A program made the translations under genes and the position numbers. This document shows, one piece after another, positions 5,363-20,000 of a stretch of 20,000 bases of DNA. The notes beneath the pieces were generated by a model. The model made no database searches. It was not told where the DNA came from and worked only from the letters and a program-made list of their open reading frames with translations. The DNA is taken from positions 55,021-75,020 of IMG/VR virus record IMGVR_UViG_3300002161_000007, one strand, 5' to 3'. The first letter of the stretch is position 1. Each line of letters starts with the position of its first letter. The DNA comes from an uncultured virus (IMG/VR IMGVR_UViG_3300002161_000007) (taxonomy: Duplodnaviria > Heunggongvirae > Uroviricota > Caudoviricetes).

Positions 5363-5779
5363 TTGCCTCAGTTCGCAGAGGATTGGCGTAAGCAAGCACT
5401 CTGTAAAGACCGACACATTGATCTTTGGTACCCACCATTAGACACAGACGTACCAGAGAATTACTACACGATCTCTAGAGCCGTATGCAGACAATGTCCT
5501 GTATGGAAAGACTGCTTAGATGATGGCGTAGAAGAGAAATGGGGGTTGTGGGGCGGACTCACACCGCAAGAGCGAACAGCGCTTACTGTTGAACATCCGA
5601 AAGCAAGTGTACTTCGTGCACATGGTACATGGATGCGTTACAGACAAGGCTGTAGATGCACAGAGTGTGCAGACGCTGAGTCAAAAGAGATTAATGAAAT
5701 AAACATTCTAGAGATTCCTAAGATGGGTACGGAACTGAATAATTTAGAGATGCTTAAGTTTCGGTTGATTCAGCCTTAA
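5363..5779 (+). CDS. whiB: WhiB-family Fe-S transcription factor with C-terminal HGT-GCRC-CxxC extension
   Basis: W...ALC...CRQCPVWKDC...WGLWGGLTPQER; TTG start immediately after the previous stop. Confidence 0.9.
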   Translation: MPQFAEDWRKQALCKDRHIDLWYPPLDTDVPENYYTISRAVCRQCPVWKDCLDDGVEEKWGLWGGLTPQERTALTVEHPKASVLRAHGTWMRYRQGCRCTECADAESKEINEINILEIPKMGTELNNLEMLKFRLIQP

Positions 5780-6742: not shown

Positions 6743-7812
6743 GAATTGGCTTTGCCAGTGGTGACTACGTTCCAGTACAACGCTCCACAGATGGTAAACA
6801 GCATTGGGGTGGCTCGGGCTGGGCACGCATTGGTCAGTATGTGGAGTGGTTGGAGCATTTTGAAAAAGATGTAATTGTAGGAGTGCTCACATGGAACAAG
6901 AACTACTTCTGCATCCGAGGTGCTAACGATGAGTTGATCCCCGTTGACATCATTGTGATGCAACGACTCATGCACGACTCACTAGCCGATCACATTCACA
7001 AGGCTCGTGCTGTTGGACAAATTGTAATTAATGATTTAGACGACTGGTACTGGGGACTTGATCCAGCCAACGATGCATTCATGTCATCGCACCCAAAGAC
7101 CAACCCAAAAGAGAACCGAGATCATTACAAGAAGGTGCTCGCATCCAGCACGCTGGTCACCGTGTCAACTCCGTATCTTGCCGATCGCATCAAGTCGTTT
7201 GTGCATTGCCCAATCATCACATTGGAGAACACGGTAGACATCTCACGGTTTACTCCACATGTGCACACCGATAGTTCTGTTCCTGTAGTTGGGTGGGTGG
7301 GAGCCACGAGCCATCGCTCCAGTGACTTAGAGATCATGAAGGGGATCATCAACCCTTTAATCGCTAACAACGAGATTAAGTTCCATCACAGCGGTCACTA
7401 CTCGCATGCACCATCAGTTGCCAGCAAGTTAGGACTGCACGAAGATCAGGTGACTGTTGCGAATGCAGTGGACGCCAAAGAATACCCATCGCTGTTGACC
7501 ATGGACGTGGGTATCGCACCACTGCGTGATACGCCATTCAACCATGCCAAGAGCGACATCAAGTTGTTGGAGTACTCCTCCTCGGGGATTCCATGGGTTG
7601 GTTCATCTCTTTCAGCGTATGAGGCTTTGCGTGATAGTTGGGGAGTTGGTCGTACTGCGAGTAAACCATCGCAGTGGCTCAAGCATCTGAGGGATCTTCG
7701 GGATCCAGTCAGGCGAGCAGACGAGGGAGAGGCTTTGAGAGAAGCGGTGCGCTCACGAGACATCAGCCTCGGAGCACACCGCCTCAACTTACTTATTGAA
7801 GATCTTTCCTAG
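6739..7812 (+). CDS. Glycosyltransferase, GT-B fold (GT4-like)
   Basis: IIVMQR, DLDD, VTVST..LA, VGWVG..SH..DL, DVGIAPL....FN..KS.IKLLEYS..GIP. Confidence 0.85.
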   Translation: MRIGFASGDYVPVQRSTDGKQHWGGSGWARIGQYVEWLEHFEKDVIVGVLTWNKNYFCIRGANDELIPVDIIVMQRLMHDSLADHIHKARAVGQIVINDLDDWYWGLDPANDAFMSSHPKTNPKENRDHYKKVLASSTLVTVSTPYLADRIKSFVHCPIITLENTVDISRFTPHVHTDSSVPVVGWVGATSHRSSDLEIMKGIINPLIANNEIKFHHSGHYSHAPSVASKLGLHEDQVTVANAVDAKEYPSLLTMDVGIAPLRDTPFNHAKSDIKLLEYSSSGIPWVGSSLSAYEALRDSWGVGRTASKPSQWLKHLRDLRDPVRRADEGEALREAVRSRDISLGAHRLNLLIEDLS

Positions 7813-8154
7813 ATTCAGGCGATCAACCTTTTCAAGAGACTGCATATCTCTGCCACCCCATACGCCCCAGCGGATGTCGTTCTTGACGGCATAGCGTAGG
7901 CATTGGAATGAAACAGGACAGCCTTGGCATATCTCAATGGCTTGCTTTCTTTTTAATCGTATTTCTTTGTTATGCCCTACTAATCCAGTAGCAAAGAAAG
8001 TAGTTGTGTCTTCATGTCGGCATGACGCATATTTGCGCCATGTACCTACTTCGGGGAACGGTAAAGGATCCATGATCTCTTTGTTAATGATTGTAGGTAC
8101 ATGAAGCGGGGGATTTGACTCCCCCGCATCGTTGTAGTAATCCCAGCGGTTCAT
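7789..8154 (-). CDS. whiB: Second WhiB-family transcription factor
   Basis: W...ASC...FF...AIEICQGCPVSFQCLRYA...WGVWGG; ATGA overlap with the upstream gene (true start could be later). Confidence 0.88.
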   Translation of the reverse strand: MNRWDYYNDAGESNPPLHVPTIINKEIMDPLPFPEVGTWRKYASCRHEDTTTFFATGLVGHNKEIRLKRKQAIEICQGCPVSFQCLRYAVKNDIRWGVWGGRDMQSLEKVDRLNLGKIFNK

Positions 8155-9547: not shown

Positions 9548-9702
9548 ACTTTCTCCTTAAGTTTGATGATTGCGGACAAGATGTCCTCTAATGACTTTGC
9601 TGGTAACACAAGACCTAAGTCGTACTTGAACCATGTAAACGCCATGATTCCCAATTCGTCTTGGATTTGGTTTACTAACTCAACTGTCCTCATGTTGCTC
9701 AT
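9544..9702 (-). CDS. Hypothetical protein (52 aa, absent from the ORF track)
   Basis: MSNMRTVELVNQIQDELG...KEKV; GGAGG SD; 4-nt overlaps at both ends. Confidence 0.7.
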   Translation of the reverse strand: MSNMRTVELVNQIQDELGIMAFTWFKYDLGLVLPAKSLEDILSAIIKLKEKV

Positions 9703-9854
9703 TGCTCTACCTCCTTGATGTCTATGATTTCTATGAATGACCCCAGTGTCAACAGCGCCTCTACGAGACGGATTGCATCGGGAGCATTGGTTGGTTCATC
9801 CAAGTCACAGCGCTTGCGCACTGTGACCTGAAGTGTGAATTCGGTGGTGCTCAT
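9699..9854 (-). CDS. Hypothetical protein (51 aa; start revised to MSTTEF)
   Basis: ATGA overlaps at both ends. Confidence 0.65.
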   Translation of the reverse strand: MSTTEFTLQVTVRKRCDLDEPTNAPDAIRLVEALLTLGSFIEIIDIKEVEQ

Positions 9855-10432
9855 GACAGAGCATTCTTGAGTAGAAGATAATCTCCGCCTTGCTCCATCC
9901 ATTCAATGAGCCTGTTTGGTTCAGGTGTGAGCACCGAGATACCCATGCTAAACACATTGCTCGTTGGATCAGCCACGATGGCGATTGGTATGTCGCCATA
10001 GTCAACTTCACCTGTCAGCAAGCGTTCAGCCCACTGATTGAATATCTGTTTCTTGTCAGCGATTGGGTCACCCCAGCCACCAGTTGTCCAGCCAGCCATG
10101 ATCTCTGTCCAGCCTTCAATGGTGGTCTCGTAGTGACCACGCCAGTCACTTGACTGGATGTACTCACGATTGATCGTGAGGTTGGTGTTGTACAGGTCAT
10201 CGCCGTACTCGTCCATGCGAATGTGGTCTCCGATGTAGTACTTGCGTACTGCACCATCGTGCACAAGTTGCACAGTTGACGAGTGGTTCTGATCGGACTC
10301 GTAGCAACCCCAGCAGAGGTAACCATCGTGTACATTGCTCCAGCCATGGTCACCATCGGTGTCCACGATTTCGCTACATTCACAGCACTCGTCCTTCAGA
10401 AGTTCTTTCACTTCTTGTTGAATTTCATCCAT
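9851..10432 (-). CDS. Acidic hypothetical protein with N-terminal zinc-finger-like CxxC pairs
   Basis: CCEC...CWGC; GGAGG SD; TAATG overlap. Confidence 0.8.
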   Translation of the reverse strand: MDEIQQEVKELLKDECCECSEIVDTDGDHGWSNVHDGYLCWGCYESDQNHSSTVQLVHDGAVRKYYIGDHIRMDEYGDDLYNTNLTINREYIQSSDWRGHYETTIEGWTEIMAGWTTGGWGDPIADKKQIFNQWAERLLTGEVDYGDIPIAIVADPTSNVFSMGISVLTPEPNRLIEWMEQGGDYLLLKNALS

Positions 10433-10844: not shown

Positions 10845-11140
10845 TAGAAGCCCCATTCCTCTTCGCTGGTGTCAATGAATGAGTCAAGGTGGTGTGCATT
10901 CACCACTGCCCACGCTGGAGCAACTGGCTGACCCCTCCACATGATGCCATCGGGGAGCGTGACATTGGTGTCGTGCTCACCTTCGGTGACCAATTGAATT
11001 GCGACCACACATGGATCAACCATGTTGAGTGGTACTGGTGGATAGTGATTGCTTTGCAGGTGCCATGCGAGCGCCTGTCGTAGTTCAATCATTCCGTCTT
11101 CCACGGCTTCCGCCATGCCTAGTGCGTTGATGCTTCCCAT
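10844..11140 (-). CDS. Hypothetical phage protein (98 aa; start revised to MGSINA)
   Basis: TAATG overlap at 11140; WHLQSNHYPPVP segment. Confidence 0.75.
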   Translation of the reverse strand: MGSINALGMAEAVEDGMIELRQALAWHLQSNHYPPVPLNMVDPCVVAIQLVTEGEHDTNVTLPDGIMWRGQPVAPAWAVVNAHHLDSFIDTSEEEWGF

Positions 11141-11274
11141 TACTTTGCCTTCCTTCTGTCTCTGAACATGTCTACTGCCCGTGTTAATACGATCCCCCAA
11201 CCGATCCCAATTACAAAAAACACAAAGCAATCAATTGCGTAACCGCTTATGTGAATGGTGAATCCGTTATCCAT
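11140..11274 (-). CDS. Small single-pass membrane protein (44 aa, absent from the ORF track)
   Basis: MDNGFTIHISGYAIDCFVFFVIGIGWGIVLTRAVDMFRDRRKAK; AGGAGG SD; TM segment plus basic tail. Confidence 0.7.
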   Translation of the reverse strand: MDNGFTIHISGYAIDCFVFFVIGIGWGIVLTRAVDMFRDRRKAK

Positions 11275-11282
11275 GTGCCCTC

Positions 11283-11489
11283 CTAAAGGCTCTTTGTTTG
11301 AATGTTGTTTGCTTTGCGGTACTCATCGCACGCATGTGCGAAGAATGCTTTGATGTCAGCCACTGAGGCTTCAGTCTTCAACTTCTGCATGTCGGGATAC
11401 ATCTCTGTGTCCCAGCAGAAGTTGTGTACTTGCTCGGCTTCCATGTCGGTAATGCCGAGCATCATGACCATCATGTCTCGGAGCCTCAT
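11283..11489 (-). CDS. Hypothetical protein (68 aa; start revised to MRLRDM)
   Basis: GGAG SD; ATGA overlap. Confidence 0.7.
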   Translation of the reverse strand: MRLRDMMVMMLGITDMEAEQVHNFCWDTEMYPDMQKLKTEASVADIKAFFAHACDEYRKANNIQTKSL

Positions 11490-11731
11490 ACTGCATCTCC
11501 GAGCCATAGACGGTCTTCATCGTCAACCCGAACGGTACGACCGTCCAGTGTCTGCACTTCTTCCACTACCCAGTCCAATGACGCTTGACCTGAGAGCAGT
11601 TGCTTAGTCAATGCATCCACAACATCTTCTATGTTGAGGTCTCCCGCAAGCAATGTTGCAGGGTCACTTGCATTGACTCCCTCTAGATACACGCCCGTTT
11701 GGAGCGAGATACTTACATTCCATTTATTCAT
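11486..11731 (-). CDS. Hypothetical protein (81 aa), first gene of a cassette
   Basis: Preceded by the SD hairpin at 11733-11750. Confidence 0.8.
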   Translation of the reverse strand: MNKWNVSISLQTGVYLEGVNASDPATLLAGDLNIEDVVDALTKQLLSGQASLDWVVEEVQTLDGRTVRVDDEDRLWLGDAV

Positions 11732-11853
11732 GATGACCTCCTCAGATCATTGTTGTTGACAGGTGTTACAAGGTTGCTTCACCCCGTGAGCACTTCCCAA
11801 GGCGGATCAAGGGAAGTGCTCACGGGGTGACACCAGCCGAGGCTGATGTCACC
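11732..11853 (-). repeat. Cassette leader, type B variant (20-bp perfect inverted repeat plus SD hairpin)
   Basis: TCACCCCGTGAGCACTTCCC/GGGAAGTGCTCACGGGGTGA at 11779-11830; hairpin 11826-11853; ATGATCT-GAGG-AGGTCAT. Confidence 0.8.
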
Positions 11854-11868
11854 TTTCGTACGAGCCTC

Positions 11869-12120
11869 TCAGGACTCGTTTAACGATGTTTCAATCCAAT
11901 CTAAGTCAATGTTGTACAGATATACGACATGACCCTCAGGTGCATAGAACTTGATGTAAGCGCCCGAGTCGTCATCTTCAAACTGCTCATTGACACTGCC
12001 GATGTACTTCATCTTGGACAGTTGTTCTTGCCCGTAGTACTCATTGGTATTGACAGAGGGGATCAAGAGATTCGCCTCCACCAAGTCCCTGCGCACTACT
12101 GGGTAACCACCGAGGATCAT
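11869..12120 (-). CDS. Hypothetical protein (83 aa; start revised to MILGGY)
   Basis: GGAGG SD; ATGA overlap. Confidence 0.75.
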   Translation of the reverse strand: MILGGYPVVRRDLVEANLLIPSVNTNEYYGQEQLSKMKYIGSVNEQFEDDDSGAYIKFYAPEGHVVYLYNIDLDWIETSLNES

Positions 12121-12317
12121 TGCTCGCCTCCACAACGGCAGTTGCCATTGCATGGTGCGAATTGAGTTTGCCGACTGTCCCAGCCGTTCTCAGCACACTT
12201 GACGCACCTCCACACATTCAGAGGTAAGTCAGGCGCTGGACGGAAGTCATGGTGACACAGGATCACCGCTGTTGGAGTCTCTCCCGTGCGATTGAAATAT
12301 TCCATGACGCTCTGCAT
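12117..12317 (-). CDS. Cys-rich small protein
   Basis: CHH...CVKC...CNGNCRC; TGATG overlap. Confidence 0.7.
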   Translation of the reverse strand: MQSVMEYFNRTGETPTAVILCHHDFRPAPDLPLNVWRCVKCAENGWDSRQTQFAPCNGNCRCGGEQ

Positions 12318-12526
12318 CAGAACACATCCACTGCGATGATCTTTGAGAGTGCGATGTCAATCTCACGCTCGTTCTCGTAGGTGTCGTATGGGCTGTCGCT
12401 AGTCCACATTGACAACTCGGTGTCGCTGATTCGTGAGACGATTCCTGAGTAGTCAAATGTCTCTATCGGAGAGATCTGCACGGATACTTCTACTTCGTCT
12501 CCTACTGCCACATTGATTGTTTTCAT
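12317..12526 (-). CDS. Hypothetical protein (69 aa)
   Basis: AAGGAGG SD; ATGA overlap. Confidence 0.75.
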   Translation of the reverse strand: MKTINVAVGDEVEVSVQISPIETFDYSGIVSRISDTELSMWTSDSPYDTYENEREIDIALSKIIAVDVF

Positions 12527-12882
12527 TTGTTGCCTCCTTCAAGGTCTAACACTGTTTCGTACATGTCTTCGTTGCTGATTACTTGAATTTCGTACTTGGT
12601 GTTGAAGTCATCGTCCCACTGGTTCTCAGTTATGAAATAACCGATGCGGTTAACGATGTGTCGTCCAGCGATGATGTATGTGCCTTCCTCGCCGTCCACA
12701 TATGTCCATGTGTAATGCAATGGCTGATCAAACACATGGTCAACTTCGGCACCGTATGTTTCAAACATGATGCCGTTGCCATCATCGTCTGACCACGATG
12801 CGTTGTCATCTAGGTGATTGTTGACAGGCTTGAACTTTGCCTCCCATTCTTCAACAGACATTTTGATTACTGGTTGTATCAT
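12523..12882 (-). CDS. Hypothetical phage protein (119 aa), first gene of a cassette
   Basis: FKPVNNH...MFETYG...WT...G.HIVNRIGYFITE; SD hairpin upstream. Confidence 0.8.
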   Translation of the reverse strand: MIQPVIKMSVEEWEAKFKPVNNHLDDNASWSDDDGNGIMFETYGAEVDHVFDQPLHYTWTYVDGEEGTYIIAGRHIVNRIGYFITENQWDDDFNTKYEIQVISNEDMYETVLDLEGGNK

Positions 12883-12992
12883 CTGACCTCCTCAGGTCTT
12901 TAGGGATTAACTAATTTATCGGGTACTAGGTACCCTCACAACACACAAACAGAATTTATGTGCTGTGAGAGCACCACGAGCCGAAGCCCGTG
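12883..12992 (-). repeat. Cassette leader, type B
   Basis: CACGGGC-TTCG-GCTCGTG; long stem 12929-12975; GGGTAC-CTA-GTACCC; GACCT-GAGG-AGGTC. Confidence 0.85.
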
Positions 12993-13001
12993 ATGCCCCG
13001 A

Positions 13002-13259
13002 TCAGGCAACATCCTCCCACCATGTCTGTGGCATGTAGAAGTATCCGCCTTCGTGCCAGCCGAATGAGTGACCGTCAGTAGCGACTTGGTCATTCAGCCA
13101 TTCCGTGGCTACCTGTTCTTGGTACCACGAGTCCTCAATGTCGGTGGGCTGGCGCCCATCCCACCCAAGTTCTCGTGCAATCCTGCACGCTTCCATGGCG
13201 CTGTACACGCCATGGTGGTCGTCAACTAACAACCCAGTGCCGATCATGACCTTGCTCAT
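13002..13259 (-). CDS. Hypothetical protein (85 aa)
   Basis: GGAGGT SD; ATGA overlap. Confidence 0.75.
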   Translation of the reverse strand: MSKVMIGTGLLVDDHHGVYSAMEACRIARELGWDGRQPTDIEDSWYQEQVATEWLNDQVATDGHSFGWHEGGYFYMPQTWWEDVA

Positions 13260-13543
13260 TGCTCTACCTCCATGTCAGCGAGCACGAATGGGATCTTGTA
13301 GTCAATGTCGTACGACAAGACATTGAAGTCTTCGCCGTTGTTGCCTACGAGTGACTTGAGTTCCTCTTCTCCGCCTTCGCAGTAGAAGAAGACCTCATCG
13401 TCTCGGTTGCCCAGCGAGTCGTACTCGCCGTTCCACTCGTTCTCATTCCATGTGCCAAACGAGATGTACACCTCGCTTTCGTCCTGCGTGTCCTTCCACT
13501 GGATGATTGCCCATGCACCAATTGGTGTTCCGATATTGCTCAT
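13256..13543 (-). CDS. Acidic hypothetical protein (95 aa; start revised to MSNIGT)
   Basis: AAGGAG SD; TAATG overlap. Confidence 0.75.
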   Translation of the reverse strand: MSNIGTPIGAWAIIQWKDTQDESEVYISFGTWNENEWNGEYDSLGNRDDEVFFYCEGGEEELKSLVGNNGEDFNVLSYDIDYKIPFVLADMEVEQ

Positions 13544-13782
13544 TAGAACTCTCCTTGTTCTGTGATGTCGTAATTGAGGTATGTCCACACATCTTGGTTG
13601 ACGCTGTCGTAACCACCGTTGGCGTCAAACACTTCAACAGCCCTGAGCCATTCTTCTGAATCTGCCGACAATGTTTCATCATTGTCACCAATGGTGAACA
13701 GGTTTGCTTCCCACCAAGAGATAGCGATCTCTTCGTCAGGATTGATCTCACTCAATAATTTAATTGCGTGACTTACTTTCAT
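13543..13782 (-). CDS. Acidic hypothetical protein (79 aa), first gene of a cassette
   Basis: SD hairpin upstream. Confidence 0.8.
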   Translation of the reverse strand: MKVSHAIKLLSEINPDEEIAISWWEANLFTIGDNDETLSADSEEWLRAVEVFDANGGYDSVNQDVWTYLNYDITEQGEF

Positions 13783-13865
13783 GGTGCCTCCTCAGGCTTT
13801 GTTTACTTCGGCGGTATTGCCTTGTCCCCAGTCGGAATTGAATCCGCACGCCTGTAGCGCTGGGG
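13783..13865 (-). repeat. Cassette leader, type A (tRNA-like core 13826-13865)
   Basis: CCCCAG-CGC-TACAG-GCG-TG-CGGA-TTCAAT-TCCG-A-CTGGGG-AC; GCCT-GAGG-AGGC. Confidence 0.9.
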
Positions 13866-13872
13866 GATCTCT

Positions 13873-14088
13873 CTAGAAGCCGTTCTTGTCACAGATCTTG
13901 CTGAGAGCGCCAATGACCTTGTCCTCTACAGCGAGATACTGCTCAAGAGAACCCCATGGATAGATGCCATCGTCACCGAGTCGGTTGTGAATCGCTTCCA
14001 TGCCGTCTCGCACCAACTGGTACAGGATGTCCAGTTCGGATCCACGGCGATCAATGCCTCCGTTGAGAGTGATATTTAAGTTGTACAT
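13873..14088 (-). CDS. Hypothetical protein (71 aa), single-gene cassette
   Basis: Flanked by leaders on both sides. Confidence 0.8.
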   Translation of the reverse strand: MYNLNITLNGGIDRRGSELDILYQLVRDGMEAIHNRLGDDGIYPWGSLEQYLAVEDKVIGALSKICDKNGF

Positions 14089-14188
14089 GGTGACCTCCTC
14101 AGGTCTTGAATGAACATCGGGTGATGTTCTGACAGTACATCAACGGTGTGTCAATGTACTGTCAGAACACCACGGGCTTGCGCCCGTG
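14089..14188 (-). repeat. Cassette leader, type B
   Basis: CACGGGC-GCAA-GCCCGTG; long stem GTTCTGACAGTACAT/ATGTACTGTCAGAAC; GAACATC-ACCC-GATGTTC; GACCT-GAGG-AGGTC. Confidence 0.85.
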
Positions 14189-14272
14189 ATGAACTGTGGT
14201 GGCTCCCGTGAGGACAAGAGTGCACCGATTGTCGCTTGTAACGCTGACCATGAAGCGCTACAGCGCCCACGA

Positions 14273-15796
14273 TTATCCGTTACCAACGATCCCGTCAATG
14301 AGGGCTTGCGTAATGCTTCCACCCTCTGCACCCATGTCTTCACCGTGACCTGTCAAGACAGCCGATACCGTCTCGTGCTTGGCGTTGAGTAGTGCCCACA
14401 TGCGATCGTCCACTGTTGGGATCTCGCTTGTGTCATCTACAGCCAACAACCACCACGCAACGACTGCGTTGTCTTGACCGATGCGGTGTGCACGGTCTTC
14501 TGATTGCACTGCTTCCGCTGGTGTCCATGGCACTTCAGCGAACACCACATGCGATGATGCGGTCAATGTAAGACCGACACCAGCACTTGTGAATTGTCCG
14601 ATGAACACCTTGGCGTCACCTTGTTGGAATGCGTCAACTGCTTCCTGCTTCTGCTCATCGGTAAGACCGCCAGCCACCTTGACTACGCCGTGCTTGTTAA
14701 GAGCACTGGCTAAGCCTGCGATGACATCTCGGTGATGTGCGAACACGATGACCTTCTCGCCTTGAGCGACAAGTTCTTCTACATGCTCAACCACATACGG
14801 GATCTTGGCGATACCGAGCAACTTGCGCAGTGCGTTGAGGCGAGTGATCACCTCAGCCTTGGATGCCTTCTGCCATGCCTCGGCACCGCCATTGGCGATG
14901 ACGAAGTCACGGAAGTCATTCTCGGCGTGACGGTATGTAGCGAGATCATCTTCTGTGATCTCTACCGCCACTTGAGCACGGCGCTTCGCTGGGAGTTCCT
15001 TCAACACATCTGACTTGTTACGCCTCACATAGCAGATGCCACGCAATTTGTCGTTCAACTCAGTGGTGTTGCTGGCTCCGTTGTACACATAACCCCATCC
15101 ATTGTGGATTGGATCACAGTAACGAAACAGGAATGCGTTGCGTCCACCGAACCCTCTGTCCAGTCTGTCAATGATTGACAGCGGAGCAACGAGTTCGCTT
15201 GGACGATTCACGATGATGGTGCCACTGAGCAATACCACATACCCCTCAGTCGGAATTGACTTGGCGATGTATGCAATACCCTTAGTGCGACCTGACTTCG
15301 CATTCTTCGCACGGTGTGCCTCATCAACGATGAGCGCTCCAAACTTGCCAGCCAACTTGAGTGACCACAGGTCAACATTGCTGTCACCAATGATCACCAC
15401 ATCAGCCTTAGGTATGGCACCGACACGACTGCCCTTCACCACGGCTACAGAGAGCCACGGTGCGAACTGCTTGAATGAGCGAACCCAGTTGGTGCGCAAT
15501 GACGGAGGCACCACGACAAGCACCTTGTGCTTCTCATTGACAGCCTGCACAGCCACTGCGATGCCCTGCGGAGTCTTGCCCAGCCCCATCTCGTCACCGA
15601 TGATGACACGGCGTTGCTTGATTGCATACGCCACGCCAGCACGCTGGAACGGGAAGAGAGGTTGAGCGAGATCTACAGCGACCTCACCATCGTGAGCGCT
15701 ACTAAGAGCAAGGAGTGATGGGTCAGCAGTGATTGCTGGCGCAACACGATCAAGCCCCGATAGCAATGCACTCAGTCCTTCTAGTTGTGTATTCAT
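14273..15796 (-). CDS. SNF2-family (SMARCAL1/HARP-like) helicase/ATPase
   Basis: FQ, DEMGLGKT, VVVPP, DEAH, SGT, GVGLTLT, QSEDRAHRIGQ. Confidence 0.93.
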   Translation of the reverse strand: MNTQLEGLSALLSGLDRVAPAITADPSLLALSSAHDGEVAVDLAQPLFPFQRAGVAYAIKQRRVIIGDEMGLGKTPQGIAVAVQAVNEKHKVLVVVPPSLRTNWVRSFKQFAPWLSVAVVKGSRVGAIPKADVVIIGDSNVDLWSLKLAGKFGALIVDEAHRAKNAKSGRTKGIAYIAKSIPTEGYVVLLSGTIIVNRPSELVAPLSIIDRLDRGFGGRNAFLFRYCDPIHNGWGYVYNGASNTTELNDKLRGICYVRRNKSDVLKELPAKRRAQVAVEITEDDLATYRHAENDFRDFVIANGGAEAWQKASKAEVITRLNALRKLLGIAKIPYVVEHVEELVAQGEKVIVFAHHRDVIAGLASALNKHGVVKVAGGLTDEQKQEAVDAFQQGDAKVFIGQFTSAGVGLTLTASSHVVFAEVPWTPAEAVQSEDRAHRIGQDNAVVAWWLLAVDDTSEIPTVDDRMWALLNAKHETVSAVLTGHGEDMGAEGGSITQALIDGIVGNG

Positions 15797-15893
15797 GGTC
15801 TGTTTACCTCCTCAGGTAATTGTTAGTGGACTTGCGTCCTCACAACACATCAGTTGCCCGATGTGCTGTGAGGGCGCCACACCTTGCGGTGTG
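15797..15893 (-). repeat. Cassette leader, type B
   Basis: CACACC-GCAA-GGTGTG; long stem 15834-15877; GGAC-GCAA-GTCC; TTACCT-GAGG-AGGTAA. Confidence 0.85.
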
Positions 15894-15904
15894 ACATCCT
15901 CGGG

Positions 15905-16630
15905 CTAGAAGCCCAATCGCTTTGCGCAGTCGTTGCCGATGCCACGCTTGCGTGTGACCTCATCGGTCAAGTGACGCCCGCACACACCACACCGCCCGAT
16001 CTCTTGACCGTACAGTGCCTGTGCATCCATGCGTTCTTGATCGCTGAGCGCAAGTAGACGCTTCACAGCGTTCACTGCACGCTCACCGTGTAGTCGCTCG
16101 TCACGATGACCACCCACGACCATGTAGATCGCACGCTGACCCTTGAGGCTTGCGTTATGCACGCCCTTGTTGGTCTTCACTGCGTAGAACACGAGATCGT
16201 TGGCGCCAGTTGATGACAGTGCGTAGAACCCATCGGCAAGTGTGCCGAAGAGTTCGTTGGTCACCGTCACTGGACGAGCAACAGGCTCCGATGAGCATTC
16301 ACCAGCCTTGTGGAATGTCTGCCACTTGCCACTGATGAGCAATGCGTGACCAGCACCGACAGGTACAGGATGCCCGCACAATGTGCACGGGTTCGCATAC
16401 TTGTTGACGATGGTGCGCTCTGCCTTAGGCAAGTGGTCAGTGCCCACACGCTTGACCTCAATCTTCTTGATTGCGTCAATGGCGAACGATGCTGACTTGC
16501 TGGACAACTCATTCAACTTCTGATCAATGATGTACTGGTCAACACCAGCCTCATCAAGACCGAGTGTTGAAGCACGCTCTAAGAGCATCGTGCGAATGAA
16601 TGCCTGTTGCTTTGGTGTTATTGCACCCAT
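15905..16630 (-). CDS. DUF6011-like zinc-finger protein
   Basis: ITPKQ..FI N-terminus; NKYANPCTLCG...H...C; C-terminal CGVCGRHLTD......GIGNDC. Confidence 0.75.
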   Translation of the reverse strand: MGAITPKQQAFIRTMLLERASTLGLDEAGVDQYIIDQKLNELSSKSASFAIDAIKKIEVKRVGTDHLPKAERTIVNKYANPCTLCGHPVPVGAGHALLISGKWQTFHKAGECSSEPVARPVTVTNELFGTLADGFYALSSTGANDLVFYAVKTNKGVHNASLKGQRAIYMVVGGHRDERLHGERAVNAVKRLLALSDQERMDAQALYGQEIGRCGVCGRHLTDEVTRKRGIGNDCAKRLGF

Positions 16631-16738
16631 GGTAAGAACCTCCTCAGATTCTGTTTTGTTGTACTGAATGGACTTGCGTCCTCGGAATGCACCGATGGGG
16701 GATCAGTGCACTCCGAGCACGCCATGGCTTGCGCCATG
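16631..16738 (-). repeat. Cassette leader, type B
   Basis: CATGGC-GCAA-GCCATG; long stem 16676-16722; GGAC-GCAA-GTCC; AGAATCT-GAGG-AGGTTCT. Confidence 0.85.
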
Positions 16739-16757
16739 ACTGCCCACTGCTACTTAC

Positions 16758-17012
16758 TCACGCATTGGCGAGTTGGGAAGTGAGTTCTGCGATTGCCTTC
16801 CATAACACTGTGTCAATGTCAGCGGTGTCACTGATAAAGAGCGTGATCGTGGACTCCAGTTTTGCGTAACCGAATGACTCTTTGTCCTGCTCCCACTGGG
16901 GACGGCTGAACGCCAAGTCTTCGTACTCAATCACGAGATCAATCGTGTGAAGTCGTGAGTCACCAGTTTTCTCAATCCGAAACCCAGTTACTTTGTGAAT
17001 AGTTGCATCCAT
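16758..17012 (-). CDS. Hypothetical protein (84 aa; start revised to MDATIH)
   Basis: ATG directly follows the SD hairpin; the ORF-track extension runs through the leader. Confidence 0.8.
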   Translation of the reverse strand: MDATIHKVTGFRIEKTGDSRLHTIDLVIEYEDLAFSRPQWEQDKESFGYAKLESTITLFISDTADIDTVLWKAIAELTSQLANA

Positions 17013-17115
17013 GGTTGACCTCCTCGGGTCTGTTAGTTGAACGGGCAATTGTATGCCCTCACAATGCACCGACACAACGCCGATGCACTGTGAGGGCACC
17101 ACGGGCGAACCCGTG
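17013..17115 (-). repeat. Cassette leader, type B
   Basis: CACGGG-TTCG-CCCGTG; long stem 17054-17098; GGGCA-TACAAT-TGCCC; GACCC-GAGG-AGGTC. Confidence 0.85.
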
Positions 17116-17125
17116 ATGCTCCCGA

Positions 17126-17344
17126 TCACGCACTGTGATCAACTGAGTGGTCGTACCCCTCGGGGTACCACGCATCACCGCATGTCGCACAGGTGTATCC
17201 ATCGGGGTATCCGATGTCGTACGCCTCAGCGAACTCCAGTGTCTCACCTTCACGAAGTGACTCGGCTTGGTAGTAGTCGGCGCACACAAGGCACACCAAC
17301 GCACCATCGTCCATCACTTTGCCAATTACGACTGGGCTAGTCAT
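17126..17344 (-). CDS. Small zinc-finger protein (72 aa; start revised to MTSPVV)
   Basis: CLVC...CATC; GAGGA SD; 8-nt overlap with the upstream gene. Confidence 0.75.
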   Translation of the reverse strand: MTSPVVIGKVMDDGALVCLVCADYYQAESLREGETLEFAEAYDIGYPDGYTCATCGDAWYPEGYDHSVDHSA

Positions 17345-17657
17345 TGTCCTCGTCCTCCTCCACATAGCCTGCTGGCATTGTGATGGATGGGAAGTAGACA
17401 ACGGCTTCATCACGACCCATGCTGTCTTGACGCACATCGTAAAGAAGTGCCCTTGTCAGGGCTTGACCTTTACTGCCCAAGTCAGCGAGTGCCGATCCGA
17501 GGATCAAGAATGTTGATGCCACATCTTCGGTCACAATGCCGAGGCATTGAGCGCCATACATCGCACGACCCGAGTACTCCATTACGGAACCCGCTTCATA
17601 CATGTCCAGTGTGTCAGTGATCTGTTCTAGATCCCAGTCGGTCAGTTGATAACTCAT
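17337..17657 (-). CDS. Hypothetical phage protein (106 aa), first gene of a cassette
   Basis: YSGRAMYG..CLGIV...RQDSMG....VYFP; SD hairpin upstream. Confidence 0.8.
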   Translation of the reverse strand: MSYQLTDWDLEQITDTLDMYEAGSVMEYSGRAMYGAQCLGIVTEDVASTFLILGSALADLGSKGQALTRALLYDVRQDSMGRDEAVVYFPSITMPAGYVEEDEDND

Positions 17658-17742
17658 GGCTATACCTCCTCAGGTATTTTGTAGTGAGCGGTTGCTCACA
17701 GTCCCCAGTACCGATTGAACGGTCACGCCTAAAGCGCTGGGG
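17658..17742 (-). repeat. Cassette leader, type A (core 17703-17742)
   Basis: CCCCAG-CGC-TTTAG-GCG-TG-ACCG-TTCAAT-CGGT-A-CTGGGG-AC; ATACCT-GAGG-AGGTAT. Confidence 0.9.
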
Positions 17743-17749
17743 GAATTGG

Positions 17750-18040
17750 TTAGTAAGAACCCCAATTTTCTTCATCGGTGACGATGTCTCGCACGACATC
17801 AGGACTGATACCGCACTTGATCAAGAATGCGCTGTTTTCTTCTGCCGTTCGGCAGTCAACGATTACAGCGTCATCCATGCCGAGTTGATCCGCAAGTGAT
17901 TGCCACAGCATCCACAGAGCGATATGTGCACGCTCATGGTGCATCACCCGCCAGACTCCGAGACTTCTTGGTGACATGGAATCAAAGTGCGCATGCCTGC
18001 GAATTGCTTTTGCAATTGTGTCTTCTATTCCGAATTTCAT
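17750..18040 (-). CDS. Hypothetical protein (96 aa), single-gene cassette
   Basis: Flanked by leaders on both sides. Confidence 0.8.
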   Translation of the reverse strand: MKFGIEDTIAKAIRRHAHFDSMSPRSLGVWRVMHHERAHIALWMLWQSLADQLGMDDAVIVDCRTAEENSAFLIKCGISPDVVRDIVTDEENWGSY

Positions 18041-18130
18041 GGCTATACCTCCTCAGGTATTTGTATTCACGACACTGGCGTGTCGCTAGTCCCTAGTCCG
18101 AATTGAATCGGCACGCCCAAGGCGCTAGGG
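18041..18130 (-). repeat. Cassette leader, type A (core 18091-18130)
   Basis: CCCTAG-CGCC-TTG-GGCG-TG-CCGA-TTCAAT-TCGG-A-CTAGGG-AC; ATACCT-GAGG-AGGTAT. Confidence 0.9.
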
Positions 18131-18140
18131 GAACGCTCAC

Positions 18141-18521
18141 TCACCCGTAGACGATGTCACCGAGCACTGCGTACTGCATGATGTTGTCAGCACCGCATGC
18201 GTCAAGGTCTTCGTGGTTGATATCCCAACCACGGGACACGAGCGCACCGTACGCCATGGCGATGTCATTCATTGACAACTTGGCGCTTTTGATGCTGGCT
18301 GGTGCTGGGAAGGTGTCCCGATCGTAACGATCAGGGTTCTCAACACCCACCAAGATGAACTTCTCACTCGGGTCAGTTGGAAGATTGTCATCGCTGTAGC
18401 CGTTCAGGTATCCGAACGCCTCCCACCAAGACCATCCCAACCACCCCGAACCGAGAACTGCGGACATGAACTCTTCCGCATCCAGTCGGACGGTGACTGT
18501 AAGTGTTGTTGCTGTTTTCAT
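18141..18521 (-). CDS. Hypothetical phage protein (126 aa; start revised to MKTATT)
   Basis: ATG follows the SD hairpin; C-terminal DLDA..AD.IMQYAVLGDIVYG. Confidence 0.8.
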   Translation of the reverse strand: MKTATTLTVTVRLDAEEFMSAVLGSGWLGWSWWEAFGYLNGYSDDNLPTDPSEKFILVGVENPDRYDRDTFPAPASIKSAKLSMNDIAMAYGALVSRGWDINHEDLDACGADNIMQYAVLGDIVYG

Positions 18522-18603
18522 GGTTGACCTCCTCAGGTCGCTTACTTCGGCGGGAATGCCTTGTCCCGTGTTGCGATTGAACGCCACACCTAAAGTGCAC
18601 GGG
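18522..18603 (-). repeat. Cassette leader, type A (core 18565-18603)
   Basis: CCCGTG-CAC-TTTAG-GTG-TG-GCG-TTCAAT-CGC-AA-CACGGG-AC; GACCT-GAGG-AGGTC. Confidence 0.9.
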
Positions 18604-18616
18604 GGAGTCGCTCACA

Positions 18617-19156
18617 TCACACAAGTGATGTGATCTTCTCACTGATTAATTGCAGAGTCTCAATGCGAAGAGTCATGAGGTCATCGTTGAGTTTGTTCCA
18701 CTCGGCATCGGTAACCGTTGGGCTACTGATGTGTCGGATGATGCCATTGACTGCCTGTTGCTTGGAGCCAGCACGCTCAATCTTTTCTTGGTGGTAAGCC
18801 TTCGCCTCGGCATCCTGTTGAGCGACCCATTCTTGAATGGTGGTCGCTTCCCAGTGAGCCATGTGAGACTGGATCTCTCGTGCTGACACCTTGCGAGTTG
18901 CCAAGCCGTACACAGGCTCTCGGTTGTCATTGGCACCCTCACTGCGCAAGTAACCACGGAAATATGTGTGGTGAGTCACAGCGAATACGAACTCAATGCG
19001 AGTGCCTGTCCGCCTGTAGTTGTCGTACACGGGAACCTCACGCTCAATCACTTCCGTGATTGATCCGTAACTCGTGCCACGACCGAAGCGTTGCTTGATC
19101 ACGAATATTGCATTCGGATCCTTGGCAATGATCTGCTTGATGTCTGATGTTTTCAT
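18617..19156 (-). CDS. Hypothetical protein (179 aa), single-gene cassette
   Basis: Flanked by leaders on both sides. Confidence 0.8.
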   Translation of the reverse strand: MKTSDIKQIIAKDPNAIFVIKQRFGRGTSYGSITEVIEREVPVYDNYRRTGTRIEFVFAVTHHTYFRGYLRSEGANDNREPVYGLATRKVSAREIQSHMAHWEATTIQEWVAQQDAEAKAYHQEKIERAGSKQQAVNGIIRHISSPTVTDAEWNKLNDDLMTLRIETLQLISEKITSLV

Positions 19157-19244
19157 GGTTGACCTCCTCNGGTCTTATNNTCACGACACTGGCGTGTCGC
19201 TAGTCCCCAGTCCCGATTGAACGGGCACGCCCTAGGCGCTGGGG
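19157..19244 (-). repeat. Cassette leader, type A (core 19205-19244)
   Basis: CCCCAG-CGCC-TAG-GGCG-TG-CCCG-TTCAAT-CGGG-A-CTGGGG-AC; GACCN-GAGG-AGGTC. Confidence 0.9.
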
Positions 19245-19268
19245 GATACTCACTCACTCAGTTTCTGA

Positions 19269-19589
19269 TCACTCACGCTCAATGCTTGCGATGTGCTTCA
19301 AGATCTCACGCTTGGCTTTACGCAATGTGTAAAGTTCCGTGAACTCTTTGCTGAAGTCATTCAACTTCTGCGTGGCGAACGGAAGGCTCCAATTGATCCT
19401 CCAATCGGCGTCTTCGTTGGTCGCATCAATCGTGACTGGCTCCAGTTGGGTGAGCAGTTCGGCAAAGAACTTGGCGTAATCGGAGACAATTCCGATGTAG
19501 TTAAGCGACCGAAGTCTGTCCTCCATCTGTTTGATCTGCCAGTCAAGAAACATAAGTGCTACTTGATCAGGTGTTGATGTGCTGTCCAT
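19269..19589 (-). CDS. Helical hypothetical protein (106 aa), single-gene cassette
   Basis: Flanked by leaders on both sides. Confidence 0.8.
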   Translation of the reverse strand: MDSTSTPDQVALMFLDWQIKQMEDRLRSLNYIGIVSDYAKFFAELLTQLEPVTIDATNEDADWRINWSLPFATQKLNDFSKEFTELYTLRKAKREILKHIASIERE

Positions 19590-19672
19590 GGTTGACCTCC
19601 TCAGGTCGTTGTAGTGAGCGGTCGCTCACAGTCCCCAGTGCTCATTGAAGAGCCACGACCTAGTCGCTGGGG
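19590..19672 (-). repeat. Cassette leader, type A (core 19633-19672)
   Basis: CCCCAG-CGAC-TAG-GTCG-TG-GCTC-TTCAAT-GAGC-A-CTGGGG-AC; GACCT-GAGG-AGGTC. Confidence 0.9.
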
Positions 19673-19691
19673 GAATGCGTTGCGGGATTAC

Positions 19692-19904
19692 TTAACGCAC
19701 TTTGTACTTGACGCAACTTGGGCACAAGGCTCGCTGTGCCCTTGTGGTTGATGACGGCACGAATCTCCAGTTGCCTGTGAATGGATTCTTGCGGGTCATG
19801 TCCTCTATCAACGATGTCACCGTTGTGTAGGTGTGGACTCCAGTTGCTTTGCACCCGTTGCAATGTGCTCGGTATGCATTACTTCCGTGTTCCCTCTTAA
19901 TCAT
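19692..19904 (-). CDS. Small zinc-finger protein (70 aa), single-gene cassette
   Basis: CNGC...CPSC; flanked by leaders. Confidence 0.8.
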   Translation of the reverse strand: MIKREHGSNAYRAHCNGCKATGVHTYTTVTSLIEDMTRKNPFTGNWRFVPSSTTRAQRALCPSCVKYKVR

Positions 19905-19989
19905 GGTGTGCCTCCTCAGGCATATTCACGGAGCGTTCGCTCCGCTAGTCCCCAGTGCGAATTGAATCGCCACGGCTGAACCGCTGGGG
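19905..19989 (-). repeat. Cassette leader, type A (core 19950-19989)
   Basis: CCCCAG-CGG-TTCAG-CCG-TG-GCGA-TTCAAT-TCGC-A-CTGGGG-AC; TGCCT-GAGG-AGGCA. Confidence 0.9.
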
Positions 19990-20000
19990 GGAAGAACTCA

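What the first reader, a model, noticed from the sequence alone, without database searches (positions are those of the whole stretch)
12921..17115. Type B core: tetraloop hairpin plus long stem with a conserved mutually exclusive downstream hairpin (5 copies)
Seen: copies at 12921-12992, 14112-14188, 15828-15893, 16670-16738 and 17043-17115. Each has a 6-7 bp hairpin capped by GCAA or UUCG, followed almost directly by a long stem of roughly 17-20 bp with G-U pairs valid only on the minus strand. In all five copies the 3' base of the long stem can instead pair with the downstream sequence (GGGTAC/GTACCC, GAACATC/GATGTTC, GGAC/GTCC twice, GGGCA/TGCCC). The competing pairing is kept although the sequence differs. 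There is no U-tract, so these are not canonical terminators. Established: RNase III needs about two helical turns of dsRNA; GNRA and UUCG are stable RNA tetraloops. Inference: RNase III-type processing sites where cleavage frees the 3' strand to refold into a protective 5' hairpin on the downstream mRNA, or a cotranscriptional switch.
Basis: partly seen in the sequence, partly recalled or inferred. Interest (0 to 1): 0.75.

Follow-up and report, generated by a model that had tools for sequence, protein, structure and literature searches.

The report
Bistable intergenic RNA hairpins in actinophage
Five gaps between early genes of a freshwater actinobacterial phage carry a conserved three-hairpin RNA module whose long stem of about 21 base pairs can swap partners with its two neighbours, most likely a cut-and-refold signal that separates and stabilises the phage's messenger RNAs.

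Summary
The window is the last 20 kb of a 75-kb freshwater actinophage contig. It is a myovirus with two WhiB genes and no RNase III or RNA polymerase gene of its own.

All five copies lie in intergenic gaps on the minus (gene-sense) strand. Each reads: stop codon, an 8-bp tetraloop hairpin (hp1), a long hairpin (hp2), a small hairpin (hp3), an A-rich linker, a hairpin enclosing the Shine-Dalgarno site, then AUG.

A covariance model finds 202 sense-strand copies in the window and all 36 closer relatives, none in 15 distant ones. Across 77 distinct copies, 98% of cells pair and 22 of 28 pairs show compensatory changes. hp1 loops are GNRA or UNCG in 66 of 76.

hp2 extends to 19-24 bp by pairing the hp1-hp2 spacer with the 5' arm of hp3. 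hp3 and the outer pairs of hp1 therefore compete with the base of hp2. All three pairings covary, and the two folds are near-isoenergetic.

Best reading (about 0.4): a host RNase III processing signal that refolds into terminal protective hairpins. This is untested. Against it, a different element with no long helix replaces type B upstream of an orthologous gene. No Rfam family or paper matched.

The parts
12974..12993 (-). IG1 hp1: 8-bp hairpin with UUCG loop
   Evidence: Covariation.
12930..12974 (-). IG1 hp2 (full form): core plus 5-bp lower extension, 3-nt loop
   Evidence: (22-bp perfect stem). CM match at 74.6 bits.
12921..12935 (-). IG1 hp3: 6-bp hairpin whose 5' arm is the 3' strand of the hp2 extension
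14170..14189 (-). IG3 hp1: 8-bp hairpin with GCAA loop
14124..14170 (-). IG3 hp2 (full form). The perfect stem can reach 24 bp (14121-14173) by also using the 3' strand of hp1.
   Evidence: CM match at 81.5 bits.
14112..14129 (-). IG3 hp3: 7-bp hairpin competing with the hp2 base
15876..15895 (-). IG4 hp1: 8-bp hairpin with GCAA loop
15834..15877 (-). IG4 hp2 (full form): 16-bp core, one C.A mismatch, then 3 more pairs
   Evidence: CM match at 64.8 bits.
15828..15839 (-). IG4 hp3: 4-bp hairpin with GCAA loop, competing with the hp2 base
16721..16740 (-). IG5 hp1: 8-bp hairpin with GCAA loop
16676..16722 (-). IG5 hp2 (full form): 16-bp core, one G.G mismatch, then 4 more pairs
   Evidence: CM match at 70.3 bits.
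16670..16681 (-). IG5 hp3: 4-bp hairpin with GCAA loop
17098..17117 (-). IG6 hp1: hairpin with UUCG loop
17053..17099 (-). IG6 hp2 (full form): 22-bp perfect stem
   Evidence: CM match at 72.6 bits.
17043..17058 (-). IG6 hp3: 5-bp hairpin whose 5' arm is the 3' base of hp2
12885..12898 (-). IG1 small hairpin enclosing the Shine-Dalgarno sequence, followed by the start codon at 12882
   Evidence: The flanks covary among copies.
14092..14105 (-). IG3 Shine-Dalgarno hairpin
15805..15818 (-). IG4 Shine-Dalgarno hairpin
16636..16651 (-). IG5 Shine-Dalgarno hairpin
17017..17030 (-). IG6 Shine-Dalgarno hairpin
11760..11853 (-). 'Type A' element, a diverged sixth member: CUCG-loop hairpin plus long hairpin, closed into a multi-helix junction
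   Evidence: CM match at 34.7 bits, E 1.8e-9. Fold z-score -8.58.

Best explanation
The five sites are copies of one cis-acting RNA module in the leftward (minus-strand) early-gene transcript of a freshwater actinophage.

The module can take two folds.
- Fold II: a 7-bp tetraloop hairpin (hp1) abuts a continuous helix of 19-24 bp (hp2), about two turns of A-form RNA.
- Fold I: the lowest 4-5 pairs of hp2 open. Their 5' strand lengthens hp1 by 2-3 pairs, and their 3' strand forms hp3 with the sequence downstream.

Proposed mechanism (inferred, not shown).
1. Host RNase III binds fold II and cuts both strands near the middle of hp2.
2. Once the core helix is lost, the two halves of the lower stem can no longer hold each other.
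3. Each half snaps into its alternative partner.
4. The upstream cistron then ends in a long GNRA- or UNCG-capped hairpin that blocks 3' exonucleases.
5. The downstream cistron begins with hp3, an A-rich linker and a structured Shine-Dalgarno site.

The module would thus punctuate a polycistronic transcript into separately stabilised mRNAs. The balance between folds I and II would set how readily each site is cut.

Shown here: the RNA structure, its strand, the two-turn length, the competing pairings and their covariation.
Inferred: cleavage, the enzyme, and the stabilising effect.
For: RNA-level element.
- Sense folds are 7.1-19.3 kcal/mol better than antisense.
- 181 of 190 hairpins of 13 bp or more in 51 related loci lie on the gene-sense strand.
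- The covariance model scores 30-86 bits on the sense strand (202 matches) and at most 32 bits on the antisense strand (45 matches).
- hp1 loops are GNRA in 50 and UNCG in 16 of 76 distinct copies.

Structure under selection.
- In 77 distinct copies, 98.0% of cells pair and 22 of 28 pairs change on both sides. 0 of 500 shuffles reach this, and slid controls give 29-45% paired.
- A MAFFT alignment not fitted to the structure gives the same result: 95.2% paired, covariation score 0.549 against 0.236.

Length.
- hp2 in its full form has 19-24 pairs in 75 of 76 copies.
- This is close to the 22-bp, two-turn idealised substrate of E. coli RNase III described in PMC3867540 (passages read).

Refolding design.
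- Column 26 pairs with column 81 in hp2 (UA 23, CG 16) and alternatively with column 5 in hp1 (AU 23, GC 18; 41 of 41 paired).
- hp3 starts exactly at the last core nucleotide in 52 of 55 distinct segments.
- hp3 has 12 stem variants that covary with both hp2 strands.
- The difference in free energy, fold I minus fold II, is -0.8 +/- 1.7 kcal/mol over 39 copies.

Placement and enzyme source.
- The elements sit only between cistrons of one strand. There are 4-9 per complete 95-97 kb relative, all inside one 7-9 kb arm.
- No phage RNase III is found in 5 genomes, so a host enzyme would act. The Corynebacterium control genome has one.
- PMC3867540 notes that RNase III cleavage can create 3' hairpins that act as stability determinants. 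It also notes that T7's polycistronic early precursor carries five such signals.
Against: - No cleavage data of any kind. The RNA-library contigs give no transcript ends.
- A type C element, a three-way junction whose helices are at most 7 bp, replaces type B upstream of an orthologous gene. A long duplex is therefore not needed for whatever the two types share.
- T7-type signals have an internal loop at the cut site (recalled). Here the helix is continuous.
- Two base pairs are invariant (C-G and A-U, 77 of 77). Two wobble positions are kept (G.U 57 of 77, U.G 54 of 77). This points to sequence-specific recognition, which RNase III does not usually need.
- Fold I is slightly favoured in 26 of 39 copies, and it should form first during transcription (inference). 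The full two-turn helix may therefore be the minority species.
- The host is unknown, and so is the specificity of its RNase III.
Confidence: 0.4

Rival explanations
1. The module is a generic structured block, acting as a stabiliser or insulator, and is not cut in hp2. Single-strand-specific RNases (RNase E/G or J) would cut in the A-rich linker, or not at all. The hairpin block would stop 3' exonucleases. It would also deny Rho and RNase E a landing site in the untranslated gap, and keep the linker and Shine-Dalgarno site free of long-range pairing.
For: - Type B and type C elements are interchangeable upstream of an orthologous gene, although type C has no long helix.
- Every element type ends in the same A-rich linker (46% A, 11% G over 850 nt) followed by a Shine-Dalgarno hairpin.
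- Nearly every larger gap in this arm is filled with structure.
Against: - A generic block does not explain the tight 19-24 bp length.
- It does not explain the invariant C-G and A-U pairs or the conserved wobbles.
- It does not explain selection for two competing pairings with three-way covariation.
Confidence: 0.25
2. The module is the binding site of a phage or host RNA-binding protein, for example a translational operator, a processive antitermination signal, or the target of a dedicated endoribonuclease. The protein would read the invariant C-A/U-G step and the flanking wobble pairs in hp2. The fold I / fold II switch would report binding.
For: - C38-G62 and A39-U61 are invariant in 77 of 77 copies, G.U at 35-65 is kept in 57 of 77, and U.G at 40-60 in 54 of 77.
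- The first three pairs of the core are almost fixed.
- The arm encodes many small proteins with no family match.
Against: - No candidate protein was found.
- 4-9 copies per genome, interchangeable with another element type, fit a general signal better than a gene-specific operator.
- Known cis-acting antitermination RNAs occur once or twice per genome (recalled).
Confidence: 0.15
3. The module is a non-canonical, U-tract-less terminator or attenuator. hp1 or hp3 would terminate or pause the actinobacterial RNA polymerase, and the extended hp2 would act as the anti-terminator, as in a 1:2 / 2:3 / 3:4 leader.
For: - A GC-rich hp1 lies 8-17 nt after the stop codon in 4 of 5 copies.
- The four-segment alternative-pairing logic resembles an attenuator.
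- Hairpins without U-tracts have been proposed as actinobacterial terminators (recalled).
Against: - There is no U run longer than 2 after any hairpin, and the terminator scan calls none.
- 5-9 elements in series in one arm would starve distal genes such as the helicase and WhiB if each one terminated.
- No promoter-like site lies between an element and the next start codon. Region-wide the scan found 7 sites against 10 expected, none in the five gaps on the minus strand.
Confidence: 0.1
4. The element works at the DNA level, as an operator palindrome, a cruciform, or a recombination hot spot that shuffles gene cassettes.
For: - In contigs of relatives, indel joints end at or next to elements: 17118, 17119 or 17126 joined to 17345, 18613 or 18638; 14202 to 14320; 13803 to 14111 (low-likeness metagenome joints, weak evidence).
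- Element types are exchanged between relatives.
- Repeated intergenic operators are known in actinophages (recalled).
Against: - The strand asymmetry, and conserved G.U positions that would be A.C mismatches on the other strand, cannot be explained by a duplex-DNA site.
- Copies within one genome have different half-site sequences, yet each copy is self-complementary. One dimeric protein could not read them all.
- GNRA and UNCG loops are RNA motifs.
- Recombination at the conserved flanks is more likely a by-product.
Confidence: 0.05

Closest known systems
RNase III processing signals of the phage T7 early polycistronic mRNA (five sites)
   Same: - Hairpins of about two helical turns between cistrons of a phage early transcript.
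- Cleavage leaves a 3' hairpin that stabilises the upstream mRNA (PMC3867540, passages read; site details recalled).
- The phage relies on the host enzyme. None is encoded here.
   Different: - T7 signals have an internal loop and are mostly cut on one strand (recalled). Here the helix is continuous, apart from one mismatch near the base in 23 of 77 copies.
- Here the helix is flanked by hp1 and hp3, which compete for its lowest pairs.
- The host is an actinobacterium.
- Cleavage is not shown.
[quoted passage not shown]
   Same: - Actinophage intergenic repeats in one orientation.
- A short motif containing the ribosome-binding site with complementary flanks.
- In about half the cases, imperfect 17-bp inverted repeats with a 4-13 bp spacer lie just upstream.
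- Function is unknown (PMC3203893 and PMC12699233, passages read).
   Different: - The sequences are unrelated: the SAS consensus quoted is not the motif here.
- The Cluster K authors saw little support for an mRNA hairpin. Here compensatory changes are abundant.
- ESAS has no tetraloop hairpin and no competing downstream hairpin.
Intercistronic UUCG-type tetraloop hairpins of phage T4 and REP-type mRNA stabilisers (recalled)
   Same: hp1 is a very stable GNRA- or UNCG-capped hairpin a few nucleotides after a stop codon.
   Different: Those are single hairpins. They have no adjoining two-turn helix and no alternative pairings.
Attenuator-type leaders with mutually exclusive 1:2, 2:3 and 3:4 pairings (recalled)
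   Same: Four segments each have two possible partners, and the two folds are of similar energy.
   Different: There is no U-tract terminator and no leader peptide. The '2:3' pairing is merely the base of a large hairpin. There are many copies per operon.

Membership tests
Bacterial RNase III processing signal | Double-helical segment of about two A-form turns (about 20-22 bp) | tested here: met
   hp2 in its full form has 19-24 pairs in 75 of 76 distinct copies. The 22-bp ideal is quoted in PMC3867540.
Bacterial RNase III processing signal | Cleavage by RNase III in vitro, or rnc-dependent ends in vivo | not testable with these tools
   Only assembled contigs of RNA libraries were available, with no end information.
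Bacterial RNase III processing signal | No antideterminant base pairs in the proximal and distal boxes | not testable with these tools
   The cleavage site is unknown, and the rules are defined for the E. coli enzyme. The host is unknown.
Bacterial RNase III processing signal (T7 type) | Internal loop at the scissile bond giving single-strand cleavage (recalled) | tested here: not met
   The helix is continuous. The only recurrent irregularity is a mismatch at columns 28-72 in 23 of 77 copies.
Intrinsic (Rho-independent) terminator | GC-rich hairpin | tested here: met
   hp1 has 7-8 bp, mostly G-C.
Intrinsic (Rho-independent) terminator | U-tract directly 3' of the hairpin | tested here: not met
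   The longest U run after hp1, hp2 or hp3 is 2. None of the five is called by the terminator scan.
Cluster K SAS/ESAS | 13-nt SAS consensus with at most 2 mismatches near the start codon | tested here: not met
   The start-proximal motif here is a different sequence (compared with the consensus quoted).
Cluster K SAS/ESAS | Imperfect 17-bp inverted repeats, 4-13 bp spacer, directly upstream of the SAS | tested here: inconclusive
   The layout is similar: a 15-18 bp core and a 3-8 nt loop upstream of the Shine-Dalgarno motif. The sequences are unrelated, and here the repeats covary as an RNA helix, which the Cluster K authors did not see.
Any Rfam 15 family | Score at or above the family's gathering threshold | tested here: not met
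   There were 7 sub-threshold matches in window 11000-20000: miRNA-like hairpins at 19.9-29.9 bits, and PyrR at 41.5 against a threshold of 54 on the type A element. None reaches its threshold.

The most novel reading that the evidence does not exclude
The module is a self-resolving 'cut-and-refold' punctuation signal.
- Both strands of the lower half of a two-turn helix are pre-programmed with alternative partners.
- A single RNase III cut therefore turns one intercistronic structure into two terminal protective hairpins, one for each flanking mRNA.
- The near-equal energies of the two folds would tune the cutting rate site by site.
- Together with the type A and type C elements, this would make the phage's early arm a fully punctuated operon, the first described in an actinophage.
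Probability: 0.33. Interest if true: 0.75.

Novelty: new variant of a known kind. Interest (0 to 1): 0.62.

Why it matters
- Post-transcriptional organisation of actinophage early transcripts is almost unstudied.
- The repeated intergenic motifs known in cultured actinophages (SAS/ESAS) still have no mechanism.
- This RNA family has unusually clean comparative support: 77 distinct copies, three covarying helices, and two competing folds.
- It offers a concrete, testable design principle, namely that cleavage drives refolding into end-protecting hairpins.
- If confirmed, it would extend T7-style mRNA punctuation to Actinobacteria and their abundant freshwater phages.
- It would give a natural, compact 'insulator/processing' part for operon engineering in actinobacteria.
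- It would add a new family to RNA databases.
- If hp2 is not cut, the conserved bistability still needs an explanation.

Tried and rejected
- Near-identity search of 5 kb against 50,697 deposited phages found no match. The helicase has only relatives below 60% identity there.
- Transcript ends. One sequencing-run search gave four RNA or possibly RNA runs, all kept as contigs. Laying them showed six short contigs of 99% identity or more from one metatranscriptome on the window, but no starts, ends or strand. This says nothing for or against processing. Three of the four runs are probably DNA.
- Rfam found nothing at threshold. The PyrR-like match at 41.5 bits on the type A element was rejected as chance, being below the threshold of 54.
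- Promoter idea. No sigma-70-like site lies in the five gaps on the minus strand. Reading the linkers showed no conserved -10 motif. Rejected.
- Closing helix P0 between the 5' flank and the 3' arm of hp3. It is significant only in the IG1-type and IG5-type copies, with 17 of 71 at p of 0.05 or less against a shuffled flank. It was not adopted as a general feature.
- Phage-encoded RNase III: 0 of 5 genomes. PHROGs and Pfam searches of 106 predicted proteins gave no RNA polymerase or RNase.
- An exact 22-nt hp1 motif gave 0 matches in 185,579 species genomes. It gave 19 viral contigs, all already found through the helicase. No host or prophage clue came from this.
- Earlier notes of this scan held nothing.
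- Literature. Searches listed no paper on this element. I saw only titles and abstract starts, except for passages of PMC3203893, PMC12699233 and PMC3867540. Supplements were not opened.
- Ideas considered from memory and set aside without a test: a self-cleaving ribozyme (almost no unpaired conserved core, and no Rfam match) and a CRISPR-repeat mimic for hp1.


Full report
WHAT THE WINDOW IS

The window is bases 55021-75020 of a 75,020-bp IMG/VR virus record estimated at 78% complete. PHROGs and Pfam searches of 106 predicted proteins show a contractile-tailed phage:
- terminase, portal, major head protein, tail sheath, tail tube and baseplate;
- its own replication set: DnaB-like helicase, primase, family A polymerase and a UvsX-like recombinase;
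- two WhiB-type regulators, a DUF932 protein, a DUF6011 protein and an SNF2 helicase.

WhiB marks it as an actinobacterial phage. The runs that hold the sequence are mostly labelled as lake-water or freshwater metagenomes. No deposited phage is close. Genes from 7789 to the contig end run on the minus strand, and all five sites lie in gaps of this arm.

THE OBSERVATION

Read on the minus strand, every site has the same order:
1. the stop codon of the upstream gene;
2. 8-17 nt of spacer (83 nt at IG3);
3. hp1, an 8-bp hairpin with a UUCG or GCAA loop;
4. hp2, a long hairpin;
5. hp3, a small hairpin;
6. a linker of 6-22 nt;
7. a 4-6 bp hairpin that encloses the Shine-Dalgarno sequence;
8. AUG.

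Evidence that this is not chance:
- In a scan of all 75 kb, the five stems (22, 24, 16, 16 and 22 bp with G-U allowed) include the three longest hairpins and five of the six with 16 bp or more. All are on the minus strand.
- The sense RNA folds 7.1-19.3 kcal/mol better than the antisense in all five copies, and each minimum-energy fold holds 3-6 G-U pairs.
- No U run longer than 2 follows any hairpin. A consensus scan calls no terminator or promoter in these gaps on the minus strand.

RELATIVES AND COVARIATION

The helicase gene brought in 51 loci from viral contigs, at 100% down to 32% protein identity.
- Hairpins of 13 bp or more number 181 on the gene-sense strand and 9 on the other strand.
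- I extracted 76 distinct elements.
- From these I kept 39 at under 93% mutual similarity.
- I replaced three near-duplicates from L001 with the window's own copies and added the other two window copies.
- I aligned the resulting 41 sequences with MAFFT.

On that alignment, which was not fitted to any structure:
- hp1 plus the hp2 core pair in 96.8% of cells, and 18 of 24 pairs change on both sides.
- hp1 plus the full hp2 pair in 95.2% of cells, and 22 of 28 pairs change on both sides. The covariation score is 0.549 against 0.236 in shuffles (0 of 500 reach it). Slid controls pair in 30-46% of cells.

A covariance model built from the alignment gave 247 matches at E of 1e-6 or less in 52 sources.
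- By my count of the table, 202 are on the sense strand, at 30-86 bits. These cover the window and every one of L001-L036.
- None falls in L037-L051, where helicase identity is 52% or less.
- The other 45 are on the antisense strand, at 32 bits or less, at the places of sense matches where I compared them.

The 150 best matches contain 77 distinct sequences. In these, 98.0% of cells pair and 22 of 28 pairs show compensatory change. This alignment is fitted to the model and so leans towards the structure.

hp1 loops are GNRA in 50 and UNCG in 16 of 76 copies. Swapping between these two loop classes is typical of RNA helices.

In four complete relatives of 95-97 kb, the sense copies number 4-9 and all lie inside one 7-9 kb arm.

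THE COMPETING PAIRINGS

The 4-nt spacer between hp1 and the hp2 core, plus the last G of hp1, pairs with the five nucleotides that follow the core.
- Columns 26-81: UA 23, CG 16.
- Columns 28-79: UA 21, CG 13, UG 4.
- Columns 27-80: 39 of 41 paired.
- Columns 25-82: 38 of 41 paired.
- Columns 29-78: mismatched in 14 of 41.

With this extension hp2 has 19-24 pairs in 75 of 76 copies.

The same five 3' nucleotides are the 5' arm of hp3.
- hp3 begins at the last core nucleotide in 52 of 55 distinct downstream segments. The three exceptions are type-A-like.
- Shuffled tails seldom give as long a stem there: median p 0.023, and 43 of 55 below 0.05.
- hp3 has 12 different stems. Where the hp2 3' strand differs, both the hp2 5' strand and the hp3 3' arm differ to match. 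This is three-way covariation, seen in several independent variants.

On the other side, the spacer can instead lengthen hp1. Columns 5-26 read AU 23 and GC 18, paired in 41 of 41. Columns 4-27 are paired in 36 of 41.

There are therefore two folds.
- Fold I: long hp1, hp2 core and hp3.
- Fold II: short hp1 and full hp2.

Forced folding of 39 copies gives a difference (I minus II) of -0.8 +/- 1.7 kcal/mol, with fold I favoured in 26. Replacing the tail with shuffled sequence weakens fold I: mean z is -2.2, and 23 of 39 are below -2.

A further closing helix between the 5' flank and the 3' arm of hp3 is significant only in two orthologous groups, 17 of 71 in all. I do not treat it as general.

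CONTEXT

- The arm holds at least two other element types. Type A (11760-11853) is a diverged member: 34.7 bits and fold z -8.58.
- Type C is a three-way junction followed by a tetraloop hairpin. It precedes six genes between 17658 and 20000 and fills the gap at 13783-13872.
- All types end in an A-rich linker (46% A) and the Shine-Dalgarno hairpin, whose flanks covary.
- The gene starting at window 17657 has a type C element upstream in the window and in L018 and L009, but a type B element in L012 and L036. The types are positionally interchangeable.
- Contigs of relatives show indel joints ending at elements. This evidence is weak.

HOW IT MOST LIKELY WORKS

That this is a selected RNA structure on the gene-sense transcript is, in my judgement, near certain. 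What it does is inference. I favour host RNase III processing followed by refolding, at about 0.4, for these reasons:
- The helix length sits at the two-turn optimum.
- The element lies between cistrons.
- The phage has no RNase III of its own.
- The two alternative partners for the two strands of the lower stem are just what would give a capped 3' hairpin upstream and a 5' hairpin downstream once the core is removed.

Points against this reading:
- There are no cleavage data.
- The element is interchangeable with type C, which has no long duplex.
- The helix has no internal loop.
- Invariant pairs and fixed wobbles suggest specific recognition.

The rivals are:
- a generic structural stabiliser or insulator (0.25);
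- a protein-binding regulatory site (0.15);
- a terminator or attenuator without a U-tract (0.10);
- a DNA-level element (0.05). This last is contradicted by the strand asymmetry and by copies in one genome that differ in sequence yet are each self-complementary.

COMPARISON AND NOVELTY

- No Rfam family reaches its threshold.
- The closest functional analogue is the set of five RNase III signals in the T7 early precursor (details recalled).
- The closest actinophage analogue in layout is the Cluster K SAS/ESAS pair. Its authors saw little support for an mRNA hairpin, and its function is still open.
- Five literature searches listed nothing on this element. I saw listings only, apart from passages of the three papers named.
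- An exact 22-nt hp1 motif is absent from 185,579 species genomes. In viral contigs it occurs only in the lineage already found.
- I class the element as a new variant of a known kind: an intercistronic processing or stabilising RNA, with a two-sided bistable design as the new feature.

Noticed in passing
window 17658-20000 (six gaps) and 13783-13872, minus strand: 'Type C' intergenic element. It is a three-way junction (a 6-bp closing helix and two 4-bp hairpins, one with a conserved UUCAAU loop), then a 6-7 bp tetraloop hairpin, an A-rich linker and the Shine-Dalgarno hairpin. Fold z-scores are -1.9 to -3.2 in five of six copies folded. There is no Rfam match.
   Followed up: partly
window 17657 with L012:2331, L036:534, L018:2342 and L009:2329: The same orthologous gene is preceded by a type C element in the window, L018 and L009, but by a type B element in L012 and L036. 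The two element types are exchanged between relatives.
   Followed up: yes
window 11732-11871, minus strand: 'Type A' element. A CUCG-loop hairpin plus an 18-21 bp hairpin, closed with a further small hairpin into a multi-helix junction. MFE is -74.1 kcal/mol with z -8.58. It is a weak member of the type B model (34.7 bits). A sub-threshold Rfam PyrR match there is probably chance.
   Followed up: partly
window 12885-12898, 14092-14105, 15805-15818, 16636-16651, 17017-17030, and before most genes of the arm: The Shine-Dalgarno sequence sits in a small hairpin. Its flanks covary between copies (outer pairs G-C, U-A or A-U), so part of the ribosome-binding site is paired. The layout recalls the Cluster K start-associated sequence.
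   Followed up: partly
window 17118-17126, 14202, 13803 and 11887 (joint ends): Contigs of related phages in two probably-DNA runs skip or replace stretches whose ends lie at or beside the intergenic elements. This suggests the elements mark mosaic boundaries. The joints come from low-likeness metagenome contigs, so the evidence is weak.
   Followed up: no
window 9799-9832, minus strand: A 15-bp hairpin with a GCAA loop lies inside a coding region (ORF 9699-9902). Its stem shares the UCACAGUGC motif with the hp2 stems.
   Followed up: no
window 12994-13001 with 12910-12925, and 16741-16750 with 16664-16672: In the IG1-type and IG5-type copies, the 5' flank (which includes the upstream stop codon in IG1-type copies) can pair with the 3' arm of hp3. 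This would close hp1 and hp2 into a junction. It is significant in 17 of 71 distinct copies only.
   Followed up: yes
window 2687-3967 (+), 5363-5779 (+), 7789-8154 (-): A protein like queuine tRNA-ribosyltransferase (a possible DNA 7-deazaguanine modification gene) and two separate WhiB-family genes on opposite strands.
   Followed up: no
window about 19165-19180: Four N characters lie inside one type C copy, just upstream of the gene that starts at 19156. That copy could not be analysed.
   Followed up: no
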